IMG/VR virus record: IMGVR_UViG_3300044730_000313
Location: 49,704 to 113,703 of that record
DNA: 64,000 nt
Source: a virus
Strand: one strand, 5' to 3'
The notes beneath the pieces were generated by a model. It saw only the letters and a list, made by a program, of their open reading frames with translations. It was not told where the DNA came from and made no database searches. The position numbers were made by a program, and so were the translations under genes. Positions 24,701-39,177 of this stretch are shown one piece after another. Each line of letters begins with the position of its first letter. Position 1 is the first letter of the stretch.

Positions 24701-27294
24701 TATTCTTTCTTAGGTTTCTTTGCTCTTCCTTTTGCGTTCTCTTTAGCTATGGCCAAATCATTTTTCTGATTCTCACGAGCCACTTGCAGTTTCTCCCTTT
24801 CGAGAGCAAGCTTTTCAGCAGCCAGTCTGTTCTTTGTACCAATGTCTGCCATCTTTATTTGGTAATCCTTATCTGTTCTTTCTCTTTCTGCAGCTAACTT
24901 ACTGACTTCCAACACATCAGGAACTCCTGACTCATCTACATCAGAGAGCCCCATACCCATGGATTTAGCTTCAGCATTAATCAGGGCAATCTCTTTCTTG
25001 TTGATACGGTCAAGCTCGTTCTGGTAGTTTTCGTTAGCAATGTCTTGTTCCTTCTGTATTTGAGCTTGTTGAATCTGGGCTTGAGCAATCTGACCTTGTT
25101 GTTCAACTTGTTGTTGCTGGATTTGCAACTGTTGTTCTTGCATAGCCTGTTGTCTGTCACGCAAGTCTTTGAACACTTTCTTCATAGCTCTCATAGACTT
25201 GGTGCTGTACAGCTCAATCACATCATATAGAGATCCACCATTCTGCATCAAAGGTTGGGCCAATTGACGAAGCTCATTGAACATTTGTGTATCCTCAGGA
25301 CGATTTGTCAAGAACACCTTTAGGTCACGAAACTTAAGGTCTGATCCATTAACAGAAACAAAAGCTGATTCACCCTCGTTAGTAATATAGCTGAGTGTGG
25401 ATTGAGGCTTCTTACTTTCTACATACAGAGCTGCATCAATGATTGCTTGATAGAGCTGACCCATTACATATTCGTGTGCTATAAACAGAGGTTCTGTCTG
25501 AGCATAAGATTGTTGTACAGCCGTGTTTACACCTGTAGCAGATTCACTAGCTGTAATAGATCCCATACGTTGTCTACTCATCCCTACGAGTTCCCAACAC
25601 TCATTCTTAAGCTGTTGGGCTAATGTATAACGAGATTGGATTTCCTGTGTTCTGGTGAGGTCAATATCTCTAAACTGGTTGAAGCTAGATGGACTCTTCA
25701 GGTTCTCAGGAGAGTCATCAATAAACACAACACCACGGTTGCGTGCTTCCATTTCCCAGATGTCTAATGCATCTTGACCATCACCATCCTTTGGAACAGG
25801 GATGTGCCTGATGGATGTCAAATACACCTTACCCACTTCCTTCTCTAGTAACTTATAAAGCTGGTTCATACATACATTGTACAACACTTGGAAAGGCTTC
25901 ATTAAATCAACCAGAGATTTAGCTTCTGTATTCTTCACCTCAAAGGTGATACCAATAATAGGGCAGTAGTTAAGAAGCTTAAATGGTTTAACATGATATA
26001 TGTCTGGACCAATCTTTGTTCCCTGATACCATTGATTAATCCATCCCCATTCTAGTGATTGTTGTGTAGGAACAGTGCCACTTTTATAATTTTCATCTAC
26101 GAGAACAGATTGTTCGTTACCAAGTTCATCTAAATAAATGAGTTTACCAATCTTCTTCTTGCTCATCCAATAACAACGAACAACAACATATTTATATCCA
26201 AATGAACTAACGTTTGATGTTAGCCCTAAGAAGTCTTTTAGTCCATCACTATTCTCCTTCATTTCTGATTCAATAATCATACGCGTTTGAAGGACCAGTG
26301 GGTCAAATGTATCGTATGTTACTGAGTCAATACCAGGCACCACATTTGGATTGCCCAAATTAGACTCACGTACATTGATAAGTCCATAGTCTTGAAGTGA
26401 GCTCCTAAGGTGATCAATTTCTTCTTTAGTGAGGTCAGGAATACTTTCAATGATTTCTGAAAGCTCCATAACTTGCACTGTACCAGCGGCATAAGCCCCC
26501 TGAGCTCTACCTGTAGGATCAGAGATATACTTACGATCAGGAGTTGTAAGAAACCAAGTGTTCTTAGGGTTAGCCACCTCAACATTAAATCCAAGCTTTG
26601 AGTTGTCTTCATATATGTGATAGAATTCTCTTCCAGAAATCAACATGTCACGAAATGCATCTTCACTCTTTTCCTTCATGTTGAATTCAGCTTTCTGACA
26701 AGTGAGTACGTGGTTAGCCCACTTCTCAGCCACAGAGGTGTAACTGTCTAACACCTCTTTCACTTCATCCATTGTCATTTGCTGCACCTCATCATCAGAA
26801 AGCTCTTGACCATTTATAGCAGCATTTGCTAGGATTTGTTGTCTAGCTCTTCCAATCACGTATTGCTGAAGGATTTCTGTTTTGAACTCGAGCTCTTCAG
26901 ACTTACTATCATCATCAAATGCTTTCACCCTGAATGTATCAGGGCGTTTACTTATTTCACCCACTAGTTCATTAACAGGGGTGGTGATGATGGAATACAT
27001 CTTTACATATGCAGGAAGTTGAAGGTCAGCTGTAAGTACATCTGTAAAGCTTCTCACCTGTGGTTCTTGATAGAAGTCTTCCATCCTCAGGATGCCCTTC
27101 ATTAGGTCATAGTTCTTTACAAACGTGTCACGGTTCTTTACAAACTCAGCATAAGCCTTGTTTGCAAAGTAGTCCATAGTGTTCTTTATCCAGCTTTCGT
27201 CCTGCTTTTCCTTGTCCGTTTTAAACTGGTCAGGAAATATGTTAAGATAGGCATACCTAATGGTAGCATCTTTCGTATATCTAATAATTGCCAT
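24700..27294 (-). CDS. Portal protein
   Basis: 864 aa with YSIITTPVNELVGE, SLVDLMKPFQVLYN, LVGMSRQRMG and a long Q-rich coiled-coil C-terminus; directly follows the terminase. Confidence 0.85.
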   Translation of the reverse strand: MAIIRYTKDATIRYAYLNIFPDQFKTDKEKQDESWIKNTMDYFANKAYAEFVKNRDTFVKNYDLMKGILRMEDFYQEPQVRSFTDVLTADLQLPAYVKMYSIITTPVNELVGEISKRPDTFRVKAFDDDSKSEELEFKTEILQQYVIGRARQQILANAAINGQELSDDEVQQMTMDEVKEVLDSYTSVAEKWANHVLTCQKAEFNMKEKSEDAFRDMLISGREFYHIYEDNSKLGFNVEVANPKNTWFLTTPDRKYISDPTGRAQGAYAAGTVQVMELSEIIESIPDLTKEEIDHLRSSLQDYGLINVRESNLGNPNVVPGIDSVTYDTFDPLVLQTRMIIESEMKENSDGLKDFLGLTSNVSSFGYKYVVVRCYWMSKKKIGKLIYLDELGNEQSVLVDENYKSGTVPTQQSLEWGWINQWYQGTKIGPDIYHVKPFKLLNYCPIIGITFEVKNTEAKSLVDLMKPFQVLYNVCMNQLYKLLEKEVGKVYLTSIRHIPVPKDGDGQDALDIWEMEARNRGVVFIDDSPENLKSPSSFNQFRDIDLTRTQEIQSRYTLAQQLKNECWELVGMSRQRMGSITASESATGVNTAVQQSYAQTEPLFIAHEYVMGQLYQAIIDAALYVESKKPQSTLSYITNEGESAFVSVNGSDLKFRDLKVFLTNRPEDTQMFNELRQLAQPLMQNGGSLYDVIELYSTKSMRAMKKVFKDLRDRQQAMQEQQLQIQQQQVEQQGQIAQAQIQQAQIQKEQDIANENYQNELDRINKKEIALINAEAKSMGMGLSDVDESGVPDVLEVSKLAAERERTDKDYQIKMADIGTKNRLAAEKLALEREKLQVARENQKNDLAIAKENAKGRAKKPKKE

Positions 27295-29318
27295 TATGAG
27301 AACAATTTACTTTTTTTTCTTGGGAATAATCCTCTTGATTCTGTGAATAGCTGGTTTTTCTTATTTGGTCTAAAGAATGCTTTTAATCTGTCATCTCCTG
27401 ACCCACCCACCTTTCCAAGTATGGGGTCCATTTTAAGAGCCTGTGCAATAGCTAGCTCTGCAGCCACAATACGGTCAAAGTTACCCTGATCGTTATACTG
27501 AATTATCTCTTCCAGCAGAACAGGATCAAATATCTTAGACACACCTGTCACCTCTTTAATAATGTCACCATCTTCATTCTTTTCCTGATATACAACAGCC
27601 TCCATATACTTCTTGAGACAGTTGTGCAGATAGTCTCTTATCTTATCTGCTGAGCGGTGCACTCCATACTCACGTTTGACGGTAGTACCAGGCACCACTT
27701 CTTTCAACCATTCAGGTTGTTTCTCAAGGTAGTGTGCATCTCCTTTAGCTTTCATATATTCTATAAAGGAGATGTCATCATTTTCACACAGTGTTCGTGC
27801 GTTATAATACTTGATTAGAAGTCTAGCCTGTTCTTCCCAGGTTTCCTTCTTATCAGGTCTTGCACAATACGAAGCTACGAACATATCTTGGTATTTCTCA
27901 CCAGTGATGTCGTGCATTCTCTTATAAATATATACAGACCCCAAAGATGTAGAATAGGCAGCTTGTCCTTGTCTATAAGGGTCAACTCCTGCTACATAGA
28001 GTCCGTATGGTGGGTTTTCTAAAGGAAACTCATATATCACTACAGGGGCATCCTTTAAATCACTGCTTTTCAGAGGGAAGTTGGTAATGGGTTGTTTATC
28101 TGTAAACTCATGACTAATCTTCTCTCCATCATGGAACAATATAACAGGGGTGCCTGTACGTTCTTGACCAATAAGTCTAGCTTTCTGACGTTTAGCTGCT
28201 TCTATGTCAAATATGTTGGTGTCCTCATTTAGGAAGATGTCATCCACCTCAAGTGGGTAGTACATCTTCTCTTTTAGGTAGGCCACTCTATCTCCAGCCT
28301 TTTTAAGGCGTTCTAAATTACCCTCTGTAATTTCTTTAGCCTTATCCTCATTGCTCACCAGCATCCTTACATTATGTAGGTCGCTGTCCTTGGGCTGATC
28401 TAGGAATGCTCCAAGTGTACTTTCTTCCTTAGCCTCCATTCGATATTTATACGAAATAAACAGGCCATGAATACGTTTCTCATCCTTCTCATTGTTATAC
28501 GTAAGGAAGTTAAAGTTGTCTACATCAAACATGAGGCTCTTGGCATCCATGAATCGCTTCATGTCACCACCAGTCCCAGTAAGAATTGGAGAGCACCCCC
28601 ATCCATAAGGAGTTGTAAAACCTGGCACAGCTGCCTGAAATCCTCGGAGAAAATTACCCTTACCAATCTCATCTATAATTAATTTACGGGGTTTGGTACC
28701 AGCAATAGCTTCCTCATTGTTACCCTCATCCAGGTTACGGATGAGAATCTGAGAGAAGGGTATACGTTCTCCTGATTTGGTCTTAATACCTAGGGTGACT
28801 TGGTTTTTCCAGTTATCCTCAACCCTTTGCCATCTCCATGCTTCAGGCAAAAAGTTAAGGCCCTTGTCCAGCTTATCCGTGATCAGCTTTATATCGGGGG
28901 CATTCAACCCAGCGATCACATTCTGGGAATTCTCATCAAATGTAGCGCCCCACCCTATGTAAGAAGCCTCGAGTACAGACTTGGCAAAACGTCGAATTCC
29001 TAGTATCACTAGTCCTTTCTTGTCTTGTTGAGCCCTCTCTATTTCGTTTGTCACAATCCACTCATTATCACGAAGGAGTGGGTTGGCATATTTCTGTGAT
29101 ATTCTACCACGTTCATCAATAACATCCACCTCTGTGTGCCATATGTTTAGGTGCCAGTAGAGGAAAGGGTTGATAAACACCCCGTTCATCATAGCACCGT
29201 TTAAGCATATATTCCTATGGAAGTCAAAAAAGGGTTTGTATTCTGCAGACTCACGGTCAGGAATACGCCCCTGGTTTATATACCAGTCTTTGTAATCTAT
29301 GCTTTGTATGTCACTCAT
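27294..29318 (-). CDS. terL: Terminase large subunit
   Basis: GIRRFAKS (Walker A variant), IIDEIG (Walker B), TGTGG, nuclease motifs AGVDPY and GNFDRIVA. Confidence 0.85.
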   Translation of the reverse strand: MSDIQSIDYKDWYINQGRIPDRESAEYKPFFDFHRNICLNGAMMNGVFINPFLYWHLNIWHTEVDVIDERGRISQKYANPLLRDNEWIVTNEIERAQQDKKGLVILGIRRFAKSVLEASYIGWGATFDENSQNVIAGLNAPDIKLITDKLDKGLNFLPEAWRWQRVEDNWKNQVTLGIKTKSGERIPFSQILIRNLDEGNNEEAIAGTKPRKLIIDEIGKGNFLRGFQAAVPGFTTPYGWGCSPILTGTGGDMKRFMDAKSLMFDVDNFNFLTYNNEKDEKRIHGLFISYKYRMEAKEESTLGAFLDQPKDSDLHNVRMLVSNEDKAKEITEGNLERLKKAGDRVAYLKEKMYYPLEVDDIFLNEDTNIFDIEAAKRQKARLIGQERTGTPVILFHDGEKISHEFTDKQPITNFPLKSSDLKDAPVVIYEFPLENPPYGLYVAGVDPYRQGQAAYSTSLGSVYIYKRMHDITGEKYQDMFVASYCARPDKKETWEEQARLLIKYYNARTLCENDDISFIEYMKAKGDAHYLEKQPEWLKEVVPGTTVKREYGVHRSADKIRDYLHNCLKKYMEAVVYQEKNEDGDIIKEVTGVSKIFDPVLLEEIIQYNDQGNFDRIVAAELAIAQALKMDPILGKVGGSGDDRLKAFFRPNKKNQLFTESRGLFPRKKSKLFS

Positions 29319-31584: not shown

Positions 31585-31752
31585 ACTCCCCTATAGTAAA
31601 GCTCTAGCTTGACATTCCCCCCTACCAGGTTCCACGTGAAACAGATCCCCCCTGTTTTTTACCCCCTGGAAAAACCCCCCTATCCGTGAGGGGGGAGCTT
31701 ACTCCACACCAAGGACCGGGGGGCAATGTGCGCGGTGGGAGCCACCCCCCGT
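31585..31752. repeat. Cluster of C-runs and G-runs (putative origin/packaging/terminus region)
   Basis: Repeated C4-C6 runs followed by G6-G7 runs in an otherwise AT-rich genome, at the strand-switch point. Confidence 0.45.
31628..31643. promoter_or_regulatory. parS-like palindrome
   Basis: GGTTCCACGTGAAACA, a 15/16 match to the chromosomal parS sequence TGTTCCACGTGAAACA. Confidence 0.65.
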
Positions 31753-31798
31753 GTAATTCGTTAACAAGGAGCCACCTTGTAAAAAACTGTCGAATTTT

Positions 31799-32245
31799 AT
31801 GTCACAAGAACTGCGTGTTAAATCAGGTGTTTGGTCAGCAAAAGGCAACTTCACAGCTCGTACAGCTTATGGCCAAACTTTCTTCGTCCACAGAAACCAA
31901 ATGACCGAGTTGGGTTATGAGAACAAACAGGACGAAAGTGGGAAATGGTCTAATCCTACAGTTAAGTTCCCATTCTATGCTGTCGTAGACACAAGCATGA
32001 TTGGTCAGCTTGACAAGGATGGCAATCCTGCGGTTGGAGAAGATGGCAAGCCTGTCCAAGTTGCTCGCATCAACGCACTCTCAGTGTTCAAAGACCTCGA
32101 TGAGTTGAAAGCTTGTGCAATCGAAGAGCGTACTATTGGTTCAGACATCGAACTTGCAGTACAGCAGCACATTCGCAGCAAGGCTAGCACAGCTGGTCTC
32201 AGCGAGCAGGCTATCAGCAGCATTCTTGCTAACTCACTCGTGTAA
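31799..32245 (+). CDS. Hypothetical early protein (148 aa)
   Basis: First rightward gene, with strong codon bias and its own terminator. Confidence 0.7.
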   Translation: MSQELRVKSGVWSAKGNFTARTAYGQTFFVHRNQMTELGYENKQDESGKWSNPTVKFPFYAVVDTSMIGQLDKDGNPAVGEDGKPVQVARINALSVFKDLDELKACAIEERTIGSDIELAVQQHIRSKASTAGLSEQAISSILANSLV

Positions 32246-32253
32246 TGATTTAC

Positions 32254-32289
32254 GAAAGTGTCCTCAATCAGGGGACACTTTCTTTTATT
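32254..32289 (+). terminator. Intrinsic terminator
   Basis: GAAAGTGTCCTC-AATCA-GGGGACACTTTC followed by a T-run. Confidence 0.75.
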
Positions 32290-32520
32290 CATTATATATA
32301 TGGGTGGGTAAACATGAAATGTTGATTGGGTGGGACTATAATCGATGCACAATGTATTGATTTTGTGTGAGTTAGAGAGTGGCTGTGTAACCCATTGCAC
32401 CTTTTAGGGGGTAAAACCAGACATTGCTAATATGCATGTCTACAAAGAATATATATAGCATTAACCTAGCTAGCATATACATGGGAGAAATTTATTGTCA
32501 CATTCTATGTATGTTAACAA

Positions 32521-32642
32521 ACCAGCCACTGTATAGTCTACGGGCTAGGTGTGGAGACAGTTGAGTGTAATGGAAACTATTACTATCTATCGCCATTATG
32601 CAATATAACCAGAATGATAGTGGGCAGCCTGGGAAGACAGGC
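32521..32642 (+). ncRNA. Candidate structured RNA (class not identified)
   Basis: CCACT/AGTGG closing stem, cUACGg tetraloop hairpin, GTAATG-GAAA hairpin and terminal GCCTG-GGAAGA-CAGGC hairpin in an ORF-free region. Confidence 0.45.
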
Positions 32643-32795
32643 ATTAATGCACCATCCTAGCTTCCCAAGGGCTAGCGGTTGTAATATCCAATTGGAGGTA
32701 AAGATGCGAGTAGGACAATGCTGCCTTTAACCCAGCGAGCCCTCGATTTCAAGAACGCCAGTTCTTGTATTACAACTGAGTGCAGAGGGATATGT
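32640..32795 (+). ncRNA. Twister ribozyme (type P1-like) with large P5 insertion
   Basis: UAA + P2 UGCA/UGCA + GAGGG; P4 CUAGC/GCUAG with loop UUCCCAAGG; pseudoknots CC:GG and CCC:GGG; 11-bp P5 CGGUUGUAAUA/UAUUACAACUG. Confidence 0.7.
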
Positions 32796-32900
32796 ATAGG
32801 TGTTCATCTGTTCTACTTCATAGAATAGAGGCTTTTTGGTGATGCAAAACCATATATTTTTATCTAAATCCTTATTAATCAATCATTTAAACTAATTAAC

Positions 32901-33110
32901 ATGAAGTATTTGTTAAAGCTACTGTTCATGACAGTGGCATTCCTTGTTGTAGCACCAGGTGTATTGTTATATTGCCTGTGGCACCTTGATCTCAGCACAT
33001 TTAGAATCATGTGGTTTGATCAGAAAATGATCATTAGAGAGCCTATGTACAAATTGTTTAACATTAAAATTATGGGTTATGGCACTAAGCCTCAATCATT
33101 CAGAGCATGA
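32901..33110 (+). CDS. Small membrane protein
   Basis: N-terminal hydrophobic helix; AT-rich leader. Confidence 0.5.
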   Translation: MKYLLKLLFMTVAFLVVAPGVLLYCLWHLDLSTFRIMWFDQKMIIREPMYKLFNIKIMGYGTKPQSFRA

Positions 33111-36958: not shown

Positions 36959-37222
36959 ATGGCAACTAAAAAATCAGTGGTAAAAGAAACAGCTCGTTTA
37001 ACTATCATATGTGATTCAAATCAAGAATCTACAGTGAAAATCAAAGGAGACATACATACTCTTACAGCAGCACTTGCTTCTCTAATGGCACATGAAGATG
37101 AAGATAATGTGTTTCGTGAGATGATGGCGTTAGCTATTCGTGTTGTTTTAGATGAAGACAAACAAAAGAAGAAGAAGAAATCTGCAACTAAAAAGAAAGC
37201 AGCTCCTAAAAAGAAGAAATGA
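36959..37222 (+). CDS. Hypothetical protein with histone-like Lys-rich tail
   Basis: KKKKKSATKKKAAPKKKK C-terminus. Confidence 0.6.
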   Translation: MATKKSVVKETARLTIICDSNQESTVKIKGDIHTLTAALASLMAHEDEDNVFREMMALAIRVVLDEDKQKKKKKSATKKKAAPKKKK

Positions 37223-39177
37223 TGAATGTAATCATTTATGATATCGAAACCTTAAAAGAATATTTTCTAGTGGTGTGTCTTATTCCTCAAGAACCATATA
37301 GGGTTTTTAAGGTGAATCAAGAAGACAACAATCTGGATGCGTTTATCAACTTCACAGAGAAACACAGAGACTATTATTGGGTGGGTTATAACAATCTACG
37401 CTTCGATAGTCAGGTGGTAGAGTGGGTGATACGCAACAATGAGTATTGGCATGAACTTTCCAATTTGGAAATAGCTGCTAAGATTCATCAAAAGGCTGCT
37501 GATGTCATACATGACGCTAATTTCGATGTGTTTCCTGAATTTAGGGAGTATGAGCTCAGCCTTAAACAGATTGATCTATTCAAGATACACCACTTTGACA
37601 ACAAGAATAGACGTGTGAGTCTGAAGAGGCTTGAGTTTGAGATGGACCTAGAGAACATTGAAGAGATGCCCATTCATCATGACACTGTAGGGATGACTAG
37701 AGATGATATCATCCTTACGACAGAATACTGTCTCAATGATGTGTGGGCTACCTATCAGTTCTACAAGGTGACCATTGGTGATACGGACCATCCTTTGTAT
37801 AAAGGTGACAATAGAATACAGCTCAGACAGGACATACAAGAAGAATTCAACATCCCTTGTCTTAACTATTCTGATAGTAAGATTGGAGATGAGATGATTA
37901 AAAAGTATTACTGTGAACAGAAGGGTATAGACTATCGTGATCTGCCTAAAAAGGGTAAGTTTGAGAAGAAAACCCATGTAAAGAACTGTATCGCAGACTA
38001 TGTAAAGTTCCAAACGCTCGAGCTGCAAGAGTTCCTATCACGCATTAGGAAGATGAGTTTGGGTATGCAGGATGATTTCAAAGAGGAACTACACTTCTAT
38101 GGTAATGTGTATTCCTTTATGAAGGGTGGTTTGCATACAGAGAACAGTCCCAAGATCTTTGAAGCTGATGAGGAGCACGAGATTATTGACTGGGATGTAT
38201 CCAGCTATTATCCAGCCATTATCATCAACAATGATCGCTATCCAAGACATTTGGGTAAAGAATTCCTTCAGGGCTATAAGACAATGTTTGAGAAGAGGTT
38301 GGAACTCAAGCCTTTAGCTAAGAAGGACAAGAAAATCAAGGGTATTGTAGGGGCTCTAAAGCTTGCTGTAAACTCTGTTTATGGTAAGAGCTCTGACATA
38401 CAGTCCTGGATTTATGATAGACAGCTCACTATGTTCACCACTATAACGGGTGAGCTTAGCCTAATGATGCTCATAGAAGCTTATGAACTAGCTGGTATTA
38501 ACGTAATAAGTGCAAACACTGATGGTGTCACTATTAGGATTAAAAAGAATCTAATAGACAAAATGCACGAGATAAACAGCTGGTGGAGTGAGCTAACACA
38601 ATATGAGCTCGAGAGGGCTGACTATCAAAAGATTATATTTTCCACGGTAAATGACTATCTTGCGATAAAAACAGATGGTGAAATCAAGAAGAAAGGCGAT
38701 TTCCTCACTGATTTTGAGCTACATAAGAACAAGTCAGCGCGCATTGTACCAATGGCTCTCGAACAATATTTTGTTCGTAATATACCTGTTGATACTACTA
38801 TTCGCAGTCATAGTGTTATCTTTGACTTCTGTCTCAGACAGAAAGCTTCCAAAGACTTCCACTACGAAGGAATAGATAGGTCCACGGGTGTTAAGACTGT
38901 GTACAATAAGCTGATTCGTTATTACATCTCCAACACTGGAGAAAAGCTCCTGAAAATCAAGAATGAGGACTCTACAAGTGGTGCTGCAGCTGTTTCCCAA
39001 GTGGAAGCTGGTGAGTGGCTGGCCACTGTATGCAATAAACTTGATAAAAACCATCCTCTGGACAACATCAATTATGCCTATTACATTGAGCGTGCTGAGA
39101 AGCTCATTAGGAAGATTGAAACAGAGGGTAAAGCCCGCAATGTAGTTGTAAATCCTAATCAGTTAAGTTTGTTCTGA
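37219..39177 (+). CDS. polB: Family B DNA polymerase with 3'-5' exonuclease
   Basis: YDIET, GYNNLRFD, YCLND (Exo I-III); DWDVSSYYP, KLAVNSVYGK, SANTDG. Confidence 0.9.
   Translation: MMNVIIYDIETLKEYFLVVCLIPQEPYRVFKVNQEDNNLDAFINFTEKHRDYYWVGYNNLRFDSQVVEWVIRNNEYWHELSNLEIAAKIHQKAADVIHDANFDVFPEFREYELSLKQIDLFKIHHFDNKNRRVSLKRLEFEMDLENIEEMPIHHDTVGMTRDDIILTTEYCLNDVWATYQFYKVTIGDTDHPLYKGDNRIQLRQDIQEEFNIPCLNYSDSKIGDEMIKKYYCEQKGIDYRDLPKKGKFEKKTHVKNCIADYVKFQTLELQEFLSRIRKMSLGMQDDFKEELHFYGNVYSFMKGGLHTENSPKIFEADEEHEIIDWDVSSYYPAIIINNDRYPRHLGKEFLQGYKTMFEKRLELKPLAKKDKKIKGIVGALKLAVNSVYGKSSDIQSWIYDRQLTMFTTITGELSLMMLIEAYELAGINVISANTDGVTIRIKKNLIDKMHEINSWWSELTQYELERADYQKIIFSTVNDYLAIKTDGEIKKKGDFLTDFELHKNKSARIVPMALEQYFVRNIPVDTTIRSHSVIFDFCLRQKASKDFHYEGIDRSTGVKTVYNKLIRYYISNTGEKLLKIKNEDSTSGAAAVSQVEAGEWLATVCNKLDKNHPLDNINYAYYIERAEKLIRKIETEGKARNVVVNPNQLSLF

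What the first reader, a model, noticed from the sequence alone, without database searches (positions are those of the whole stretch)
32640..32795. Twister-like self-cleaving ribozyme carrying a ~100-nt extra domain in the early region
Seen: GGCAU-UAA-UGCA-CC-AUC-CUAGC-UUCCCAAGG-GCUAG-[P5]-AG-UGCA-GAGGG-AU. Known: twister ribozymes have U^AA before P2, a P4 loop of form UNNNAAGC, GAGNN after P2', and two pseudoknots. Both pseudoknots can form here. Loop CCC pairs with GGG (32787-89), and the usual GC:GC T1 pairing is replaced by a compensatory CC:GG. Unusual points are a 9-nt L4, a weak P1, and an 11-bp P5 (32676-86/32768-78) enclosing about 80 nt with its own hairpins (GGTAAAG/CTTTAACC, CAAGAAC-GCCA-GTTCTTG). 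Inference: the early transcript cleaves itself at U32645/A32646, and the insert may be a nested functional RNA or an allosteric switch.
Basis: partly seen in the sequence, partly recalled or inferred. Interest (0 to 1): 0.85.

Follow-up and report, generated by a model that had tools for sequence, protein, structure and literature searches.

The report
Phage twister ribozyme, big P5 arm
This 150-base stretch ahead of a phage's early genes is very probably a real self-cutting "twister" RNA from a large phage-only subfamily that the standard RNA catalogue misses, but its 80-base extra arm is a fast-changing add-on, not a conserved switch.

Summary
Window 32645-32791 (+) has every twister core element in order: U^AA, 4-bp P2, CC, 5-bp P4, loop UUCCCAAGG, 11-bp P5 round an 81-nt insert, AG, P2', GAGGG.

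No Rfam twister model hits it, or natural short-P5 relatives. But more than 110 IMG/VR phage contigs carry the same core. A model built from 60 of them, window excluded, scores it 88.7 bits (E 2e-23).

Across 113 copies, compensatory changes occur in P4 (5/5 pairs), P5 (10/11), P2 (2/4) and pseudoknot T1 (3/3). The CC:GG version of T2 occurs only as a matched pair. P1 is weak family-wide and 2-4 bp here; published work shows P1 is dispensable. A P0 hairpin (32628-32643) lies 2 nt upstream.

Best reading: a type-P1 twister (P0 and P5 present, no P3) that cuts at U32645/A32646. This would detach the leader and leave a 5'-OH, ribozyme-capped early RNA.

The "allosteric switch / nested RNA" idea is not supported: inserts share no motif (94 clusters among 110) and are swapped whole between near-identical loci.

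This scan has already found the family on other phage DNA. It is a new variant of a known kind. Cleavage itself is untested.

The parts
32628..32643 (+). P0 hairpin (GCCUG-GGAAGA-CAGGC), 2 nt upstream of the cleavage-site U
   Evidence: Fold of the upstream 40 nt gives -11.2 kcal/mol. An upstream hairpin with MFE <= -6 occurs in 56% of family members against 35% of control segments. P0 is a known optional twister stem (PMC5408937, PMC6154101).
32641..32644 (+). P1 5' strand. It is weak: AU pairs with 32790-91, or GCAU pairs with AUGU at 32792-95 across a 2-nt bulge
   Evidence: Family-wide, P1 is only 64-69% paired but covaries.
32645..32647 (+). U^AA: predicted scissile bond between U32645 and A32646
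   Evidence: Invariant in 82 of 82 and 113 of 113 aligned copies. It matches UAA of the Rfam Twister-P5 consensus. A at the cleavage site is the proposed general acid (PMC5408937).
32648..32651 (+). P2 5' strand UGCA
   Evidence: It pairs with 32781-84. Relatives carry the compensatory variants UGUA/UACA and UGCG/CGCA.
32652..32653 (+). CC, the 5' strand of pseudoknot T2 (pairs with GG at 32669-70). C32652 also covaries with G32780
   Evidence: Matched CC..GG: 114 of 127 hits are full twisters. Mismatched CC..GC gives 0 of 31 and GC..GG gives 0 of 7. C to U at position 52 always comes with G to A at position 80 (6 of 6).
32657..32675 (+). P4 (CUAGC/GCUAG) with loop L4 UUCCCAAGG
   Evidence: All 5 pairs covary and 99-100% of cells are paired. 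The loop matches UCcCAAGC of the Rfam consensus.
32664..32666 (+). CCC, the 5' strand of pseudoknot T1
   Evidence: It pairs with GGG at 32787-89. Relatives carry UCC:GGA, CAC:GUG and CCA:UGG.
32676..32686 (+). P5 5' strand (base of the arm)
   Evidence: 11 bp with 32768-78. 10 of 11 pairs covary, yet the sequence CAGUUGUAAUA is strongly preferred.
32687..32767 (+). Lineage-specific 81-nt insert in P5, folding as several small hairpins
   Evidence: Unique: 0 other IMG/VR contigs and a singleton cluster. MFE z-score +0.18. No antisense target in its own genome.
32768..32778 (+). P5 3' strand
32779..32784 (+). Junction AG, then P2 3' strand UGCA
32785..32789 (+). GAGGG. G32785 is the equivalent of the catalytic guanine, and GGG is the T1 3' strand
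   Evidence: GCAGAGGG is identical to the Rfam consensus GCAGAGgG. G45 and A7 of the rice twister are the catalytic residues (PMC5408937).
32790..32795 (+). P1 3' strand region
32792..32883 (+). Conserved 92-nt tail between the ribozyme and the first ORF
   Evidence: 95-98% identical in L006, L007 and L124, while the insert and upstream flank are unrelated. Function not resolved.
32901..33110 (+). First downstream ORF (69 aa, hydrophobic N-terminus), same strand
   Evidence: Similar small ORFs follow the ribozyme in L008 and L021. No Pfam hit.

Best explanation
Window 32645-32791 (+) encodes a twister-class self-cleaving ribozyme of type P1. Its architecture is P0-P1(weak)-P2-T2-P4/L4-P5-P2'-T1, with no P3.

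Once RNA polymerase has made the 3' strand (32781-89), the double pseudoknot can form. CCC of L4 pairs with GGG of GAGGG (T1), and CC pairs with the GG that ends L4 (T2). This places G32785 and A32646 at the scissile phosphate, and the RNA should cut itself between U32645 and A32646.

The expected products are two. One is an upstream leader ending in the P0 hairpin plus AUU with a 2',3'-cyclic phosphate. The other is a downstream early RNA that starts with a 5'-OH at A32646 and carries the folded ribozyme as a 5' cap-like structure ahead of the small-ORF and replication arm.

The 81-nt insert sits at the tip of an 11-bp P5 helix, away from the core. It is a tolerated, rapidly replaced expansion rather than a regulator.

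What is shown: the sequence and fold are conserved and covary in more than 110 phage contigs. What is inferred: cleavage itself, co-transcriptional timing, and the role in transcript processing or stabilisation.
For: - **Core.** It is identical to the Rfam twister consensus at UAAUGC, UCCCAAG and GCAGAGGG.
- **Bridge to Rfam.** A natural type-P5 permuted copy with the same P4/L4 19-mer aligns end to end to RF02684 (21.7 bits, E 0.014), next to a 49-bit copy.
- **Family model.** The model built without the window scores it 88.7 bits, E 1.7e-23, and finds 117 hits in 100 phage loci.
- **Covariation.** In 113 copies 92.9% of cells are paired, against 29-48% for slid controls. Double changes occur in P4 (5/5), P5 (10/11), P2 (2/4) and T1 (3/3).
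- **T2.** CC:GG hits are real twisters in 114 of 127 cases. Mismatched combinations are real in 0 of 38.
- **Context.** Copies are intergenic and co-oriented with the downstream gene, often 30-50 nt before its start codon.
- **P1.** It is dispensable for cleavage (PMC5408937).
- **Products.** Twisters yield a 2',3'-cyclic phosphate and a 5'-OH (PMC8782182).
Against: - No Rfam twister model reaches even E 10 on the window or on natural short-P5 relatives.
- P1 here is only 2-4 bp.
- L4 has one extra U, or a U.G closing pair, compared with the consensus.
- Within the family C32652 covaries with G32780 (6 of 6). T2 may therefore compete with a fifth P2 pair.
- A conserved 92-nt tail lies between the ribozyme and the ORF. 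It could hold a promoter or terminator, in which case the ribozyme is not in that ORF's 5' UTR.
- No cleavage or transcript data exist.
Confidence: 0.78

Rival explanations
1. Allosteric ribozyme or riboswitch. The P5 insert would be a ligand- or protein-sensing domain that turns cleavage on or off, or a nested functional RNA.
For: The family's inserts are on average more structured than shuffles (mean z -1.27, p 3e-15). Within small insert clusters the hairpins covary. The window insert contains CCCUC, which could pair with GAGGG.
Against: There are 94 unrelated insert clusters among 110 copies, and no motif is shared by more than about 10% of them. CCCUC occurs in 1 of 101 inserts against 1.0 expected. 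The window insert has z +0.18 and is unique. Near-identical loci carry unrelated inserts: core 100% and tail 97% identical against 53% for the insert, with a random mean of 46%. Some members have only a 3-20-nt P5 loop.
Confidence: 0.04
2. Scaffold for swappable 'cargo' RNAs. The conserved P5 base would present lineage-specific arms (decoys, protein-binding or small regulatory RNAs). Self-cleavage would only serve to release a stable, 5'-OH, structured RNA early in infection.
For: The P5 base sequence is conserved far more than pairing requires, while P4 varies freely. Arms are exchanged as whole units. A few arm types recur in unrelated contigs. P5-like domains occur without a twister core downstream of the ribozyme in L043 and L046. 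Tandem copies exist in several loci.
Against: No target complementarity was found in the window's own genome (best match 11 nt, E above 1). The window arm is not notably stable. There is only one copy in this genome and no second cleavage site to release it. Many copies sit 30-50 nt before a start codon, like a 5' UTR element.
Confidence: 0.12
3. Inactive relic. The sequence would descend from a twister but no longer cut, and would persist as neutral structure or as a short-homology recombination site between phage modules.
For: Decayed copies lacking the UAAUGCACC...P4 5' part exist in relatives (L037:8439, L070:1556, L024:2428, L012:7439). P1 is nearly absent here. Flanks are mosaic around the core.
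Against: The window copy keeps every invariant position of 113 copies. All P2, P4, P5, T1 and T2 pairs are intact. It scores in the middle of the family range (88.7 bits; range 59-109).
Confidence: 0.06

Closest known systems
Twister self-cleaving ribozyme, type P1 (Roth et al. 2014 as reviewed in PMC5408937 and PMC6154101; Rfam RF03160, clan CL00120; for example rice Osa-1-4)
   Same: U^A cleavage-site dinucleotide followed by A. A 4-bp P2. P4 with an L4 loop UCCCAAG. GAGGG with the catalytic G. Double pseudoknot T1 and T2. Termini in P1. Optional P0 and P5 stems.
   Different: T2 is CC:GG instead of the conserved GC:GC. L4 has an extra U or a U.G closure. P3 is absent, whereas it is present in 78% of annotated twisters. 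P5 is always present, against 1% of annotated twisters (PMC6154101), and carries 3 to about 290 nt of hypervariable sequence. P1 is weak. Distribution is restricted to uncultured crAss-related phages. RF03160 does not detect it.
Type-P5 twister ribozymes (Rfam RF02684), found here in phage contig L005/L003
   Same: Same core motifs. One L005 copy (2586-2641) has exactly the window's P4/L4 19-mer and aligns full length to RF02684. These copies are also phage-borne and intergenic.
   Different: They are circularly permuted (open at P5, P1 closed by a loop) and about 56 nt long with no arm. They mostly use AC:GU for T2. There are at least 13 copies in 12 kb, against a single copy in this genome.
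Bacterial and phage hammerhead and twister ribozymes proposed to process polycistronic mRNAs (PMC6765202)
   Same: Intergenic, co-oriented with the genes and associated with phage genes. The proposed role is transcript processing that changes stability or translation.
   Different: That role is itself unproven. Here the ribozyme sits at the head of the early arm, behind a leader, rather than between every pair of genes.

Membership tests
Twister ribozyme class (clan CL00120) | Scissile U-A step followed by A, directly 5' of P2 | tested here: met
   U32645-A32646-A32647. Invariant in 113 of 113 relatives. Matches UAA of the RF02684 consensus.
Twister ribozyme class (clan CL00120) | Four-base-pair P2 enclosing the rest of the core | tested here: met
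   UGCA 32648-51 pairs with UGCA 32781-84. Two pairs show compensatory changes in relatives and 99.8% of cells are paired.
Twister ribozyme class (clan CL00120) | P4 hairpin with conserved loop L4 (UCCCAAGC in the consensus) | tested here: met
   P4 5/5 pairs covary. The loop is U-UCCCAAG-G: 7 of 8 consensus letters, with the last C changed to G.
Twister ribozyme class (clan CL00120) | Pseudoknot T1 (L4 CCC with GGG of GAGGG) | tested here: met
   32664-66 with 32787-89. All three pairs have double changes in relatives (UCC:GGA, CAC:GUG, CCA:UGG). 99.7% of cells are paired.
Twister ribozyme class (clan CL00120) | Pseudoknot T2 (dinucleotide after P2 with the last two L4 letters; conserved GC:GC) | tested here: inconclusive
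   CC:GG is complementary. Matched pairs are real twisters and mismatched combinations never are (114 of 127 against 0 of 38). L005 copies use AC:GU. Within the family, however, only C-G to U.G is seen, and C32652 covaries with G32780 instead (6 of 6).
Twister ribozyme class (clan CL00120) | Conserved catalytic guanine (first G of GAGGG) and the A-G step next to P2 | tested here: met
   GCAGAGGG at 32782-89 is identical to the consensus. Correspondence to G45 of the rice ribozyme follows PMC5408937.
Twister ribozyme class (clan CL00120) | Stem P1 closing the motif | tested here: inconclusive
   2 bp (AU/AU), or 4 bp with a 2-nt bulge, in the window. Family P1 is 64-69% paired with covariation. 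P1 is dispensable for cleavage (PMC5408937).
Twister ribozyme class (clan CL00120) | Score at or above the gathering threshold of an Rfam twister model | tested here: not met
   No hit at E <= 10 for the window or for natural short-P5 relatives. The permuted sibling L005:2586-2641 reaches 21.7 bits against a gathering score of 37.6.
Twister ribozyme class (clan CL00120) | Site-specific Mg2+-dependent self-cleavage giving a 2',3'-cyclic phosphate and a 5'-OH | not testable with these tools
   Needs an in vitro transcription and cleavage assay, or RNA-end mapping.
   88.7 bits, E 1.7e-23, model positions 1-129 of 129. The window was excluded from the training alignment.
Allosteric ribozyme or riboswitch (ligand-sensing domain fused to a ribozyme, as in glmS or engineered aptazymes) | Sensor domain conserved in sequence and structure across members | tested here: not met
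   94 insert clusters among 110 copies, no shared motif, and whole-arm replacement between near-identical loci.

The most novel reading that the evidence does not exclude
The conserved P5 base (CAGUUGUAAUA/UAUUACAACUG) of this phage twister subfamily is a docking platform, and the hypervariable arms are exchangeable functional cargo. On this reading crAss-related phages use one self-processing scaffold to launch many different small structured RNAs (decoys, protein sponges, regulators) at the start of infection. Arms would be swapped by recombination within the conserved ribozyme halves.
Probability: 0.12. Interest if true: 0.8.

Novelty: new variant of a known kind. Interest (0 to 1): 0.55.

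Why it matters
Twister ribozymes are among the fastest natural self-cleavers, but their biology is largely unknown. This element belongs to a subfamily of well over a hundred copies confined to uncultured crAss-related phages. Rfam 15 does not detect the subfamily, so routine annotation misses it.

The family gives natural compensatory evidence for both pseudoknots. It also shows how much extra RNA the P5 position can carry, which is useful for ribozyme engineering. Finally, it offers a defined, testable case of ribozyme-made 5' ends at the head of a phage early transcription unit. In some relatives the ribozyme sits directly behind GOLLD RNAs or terminator hairpins.

No paper in the held library links twisters to crAss-like phages.

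Tried and rejected
- **Rfam.** Gathering and E-value scans of the window, and single-family searches with RF03160 and RF02684, found nothing. Natural short-P5 relatives served as proxy and gave no RF03160 hit.
- **GenBank phages.** Only chance matches of about 20 nt.
- **Upstream ncRNA.** Tested whether 32291-32644 is a structured RNA, as GOLLD is in L008 and L049. There is no Rfam hit and the fold z-score is -0.69. Rejected for this window.
- **Insert as antisense or guide.** Best complementarity in the window's own genome is 11 nt, E above 1. Rejected.
- **Insert as mini-ORF.** GGAGG is followed by ATG and 8 codons. This is not conserved in any relative and downstream genes lack Shine-Dalgarno sequences. 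Rejected as chance.
- **CCCUC in the insert as a competitor for GAGGG.** Found in 1 of 101 inserts, as chance predicts. Rejected.
- **Prokaryote genomes.** 80 pattern hits, of which only 3 are real elements, all in MAG contigs. So the element is not a host feature.
- **Sigma-70 promoter scan.** Gives only weak generic hits. The transcription start remains unknown.

Full report
**Observation.**
- The order is GGCAU, U32645-A-A, UGCA, CC, AUC, CUAGC, UUCCCAAGG and GCUAG.
- An 11-bp helix (32676-86 with 32768-78) follows, enclosing 81 nt.
- The element ends with AG, UGCA, GAGGG and AU.
- The minimum-energy fold forms P4, P5 and the hairpins inside the insert.
- The element lies on the + strand in a 1.6-kb hub.
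- On one side is the minus-strand structural module (terminase 27294-29318, portal, capsid). On the other is the plus-strand arm of small ORFs and replication genes (DNA polymerase 37219-39177).
- Upstream on the same strand are a 148-aa ORF (31799-32245) and a strong intrinsic terminator (32254-32290). Then come 355 nt with no detectable RNA family or excess structure.
- The next ORF starts at 32901.
- The record is a 113.7-kb, 98% complete IMG/VR virus.
- Its terminase is 25-41% identical to those of Leptolyngbya, Cellulophaga, Flavobacterium, Azobacteroides and Bacteroides crAss-type phages.

**Catalogue searches fail.**
- Rfam 15 gives nothing for the window at gathering or at E <= 10.
- Single-family searches with twister-P1 (RF03160) and Twister-P5 (RF02684) over the whole genome also give nothing.

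**Relatives.** The 19-mer covering P4 and L4 occurs in 9 IMG/VR contigs.
- In 114 of 127 occurrences GCAGAGGG follows 26-180 nt downstream. This gives the same type-P1 layout with a P5 helix around a variable insert.
- Contig L005/L003 instead carries at least 13 canonical Type-P5 twisters that pass Rfam's threshold (45-57 bits).
- One further L005 copy (2586-2641) has the window's exact P4/L4 19-mer in circularly permuted form. It aligns end to end to RF02684 at 21.7 bits, E 0.014.
- The Rfam consensus printed there is cGCAGAGgG...UAAUGCgGCAaga-CGG-UCcCAAGC-CCG. The window matches all of its upper-case blocks.

**Formal tests.** A covariance model was built from 60 relatives without the window (A3, R1).
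- It scores window 32637-32798 at 88.7 bits, E 1.7e-23. This is full length and the only hit in the window.
- The same model finds 117 hits in 100 loci.
- On a MAFFT alignment of 82 copies, 90.8% of cells pair, against 32-45% when partners are slid.
- On the model-fitted alignment of 113 copies, 92.9% pair against 29-48%.

| Helix | Pairs with compensatory double changes | Variants seen |
|---|---|---|
| P4 | 5 of 5 | many |
| P5 | 10 of 11 | many |
| P2 | 2 of 4 | UGUA/UACA, UGCG/CGCA |
| T1 | 3 of 3 | UCC:GGA, CAC:GUG, CCA:UGG |

These variants are listed. The model-fitted alignment leans towards the structure, but the MAFFT alignment and the raw sequences show the same thing.

**P1 and P0.** P1 is only 64-69% paired family-wide. 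In the window it is AU/AU, or GCAU/AUGU across a bulge. Published work shows P1 is dispensable for cleavage (PMC5408937).

**Pseudoknot T2.** The consensus GC:GC is CC:GG here, which is one G-C pair flipped to C-G.
- Among IMG/VR hits, the matched CC..GG combination is nearly always a full twister (114 of 127).
- The mismatched combinations CC..GC (31 hits) and GC..GG (7 hits) are never twisters.
- L005 copies use AC:GU.
- Within the family the only change is C32652 to U, which gives U.G. It always comes with G32780 to A (6 of 6).
- So C32652 may also pair with G32780 as a fifth P2 pair, or form a triple. I leave T2 as supported across subfamilies but unresolved in detail.

**Optional stems.**
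- A hairpin ends 0-6 nt before the cleavage site in most members.
- An upstream hairpin with MFE <= -6 kcal/mol occurs in 56% of members against 35% of controls (p 0.009).
- In the window this hairpin is 32628-43.
- It corresponds to the optional P0 of the literature.
- The reviews give P0, P3 and P5 in 21%, 78% and 1% of annotated twisters (PMC6154101).
- This subfamily therefore has the rare no-P3, always-P5 layout.

**The insert.** Arms range from 3 to about 290 nt.
- 110 unique copies give 94 sequence clusters, and the window's arm is a singleton.
- No k-mer is shared by more than about 10% of arms. The best is a GUAA-tetraloop hairpin.
- Arms are on average more stable than shuffles (mean z -1.27), but the window's arm is not (z +0.18).
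- The window and L006 are 100% identical in the 5' core and 97% in the 95-nt tail. Their arms are only 53% identical, at the random level of 46%.
- So arms are replaced as units.
- The arm's 25-mer occurs nowhere else in IMG/VR, and it has no antisense target in its own genome.
- The allosteric or nested-RNA idea therefore lacks support.
- What does stand out is that the proximal P5 base is conserved in sequence far beyond what pairing needs. That keeps a "scaffold with cargo" reading alive at low probability.

**Distribution and context.**
- Of 80 pattern hits in 596 Gb of prokaryote genomes, only 3 are real elements. They lie in Sediminibacterium, Phycisphaerales and Saccharibacteria MAG contigs.
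- No GenBank phage has the element.
- Copies are intergenic and co-oriented with the next gene.
- About a quarter lie 30-54 nt before a start codon, with an A/U-rich leader lacking a Shine-Dalgarno sequence.
- In several relatives the P0 position is an intrinsic-terminator-like hairpin whose U-tract forms P1.
- In L049 and L008 a GOLLD-like RNA (E 1e-25 and 8e-22, below gathering) ends 9-10 nt before the cleavage site.
- The ribozyme therefore marks boundaries between RNA units.
- In this window a 92-nt tail (32792-32883) is 95-98% conserved in L006, L007 and L124. It may hold its own signals, so the link between the cut and the 69-aa ORF is inferred.

**Mechanism.** By analogy with solved twisters (PMC5408937), T1 and T2 fold L4 onto the P1-P2 junction.
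- G32785 and A32646 then act at the scissile phosphate.
- Cleavage gives a 2',3'-cyclic phosphate and a 5'-OH (PMC8782182).
- The likely biological effect is to detach the leader and leave an early RNA with a structured 5'-OH end.
- A role for bacterial twisters in mRNA processing has been proposed but not proven (PMC6765202).

**Prior knowledge and earlier notes.** The held literature has no paper linking twisters to crAss-like phages. Earlier agents of this scan reported the same subfamily on other phage DNA. I reached the same reading before consulting them and tested it independently here. Their notes supplied the two review papers.

**Verdict.** This is a genuine member, by fold, of the twister class. 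It belongs to an uncatalogued phage subfamily. Cleavage and function remain untested, and the switch idea is rejected.

Noticed in passing
L005:2500-12000 (same contig as L003): An 89-kb phage contig carries at least 13 Rfam-grade Type-P5 twisters (45-57 bits) within 12 kb, roughly one per intergenic gap.
   Followed up: partly
L049:4367-4761 and L008:8928-9323: GOLLD-like RNAs (RF02032; 100.8 and 88.6 bits, E 1e-25 and 8e-22, below the gathering score of 150) end 9-10 nt before a twister cleavage site. The ribozyme would therefore trim the GOLLD 3' end.
   Followed up: partly
window 32652 and 32780: Within the family, C to U at the first T2 position is always accompanied by G to A at the nucleotide just 5' of P2' (6 of 6). 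This suggests a fifth P2 pair or a base triple competing with T2.
   Followed up: partly
L037:8439-8576, L070:1556-1676, L024:2428-2586, L012:7439-7638: Four loci hold copies with the same kind of 5' deletion: UAAUCAG(C)UCCCAAGG, with the P2 5' strand and P4 5' strand lost. The P5 arm and GCAGAGGG are intact. They are either decayed or a non-cleaving variant.
   Followed up: no
L043 and L046, within about 90 nt downstream of their twisters: P5-like domains (AGUUGUAA...UUACAGCU/UUAUAACU around a variable insert) occur without any twister core.
   Followed up: no
window 32792-32883: A 92-nt block after the ribozyme is 95-98% identical in L006, L007 and L124. A 27-nt piece of it (32865-32891) recurs two or three times in L002, L004 and L006. 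It is possibly an early promoter or leader motif.
   Followed up: partly
window 31600-31760: An unusual run-rich stretch (several C6-8 and G6 runs) includes a G/C hairpin with a T-run on the minus strand (31695-31675), at the divergence point of the two gene arms.
   Followed up: no
L023:69-403 (minus strand): A tmRNA gene (100 bits, E 3e-38) lies on a viral contig that also carries a short-P5 twister.
   Followed up: no
window 31799-32290: A 148-aa ORF with no Pfam or PHROG match is followed by a strong intrinsic terminator (12-bp stem, T-run). It forms a separate short + strand unit upstream of the ribozyme.
   Followed up: partly
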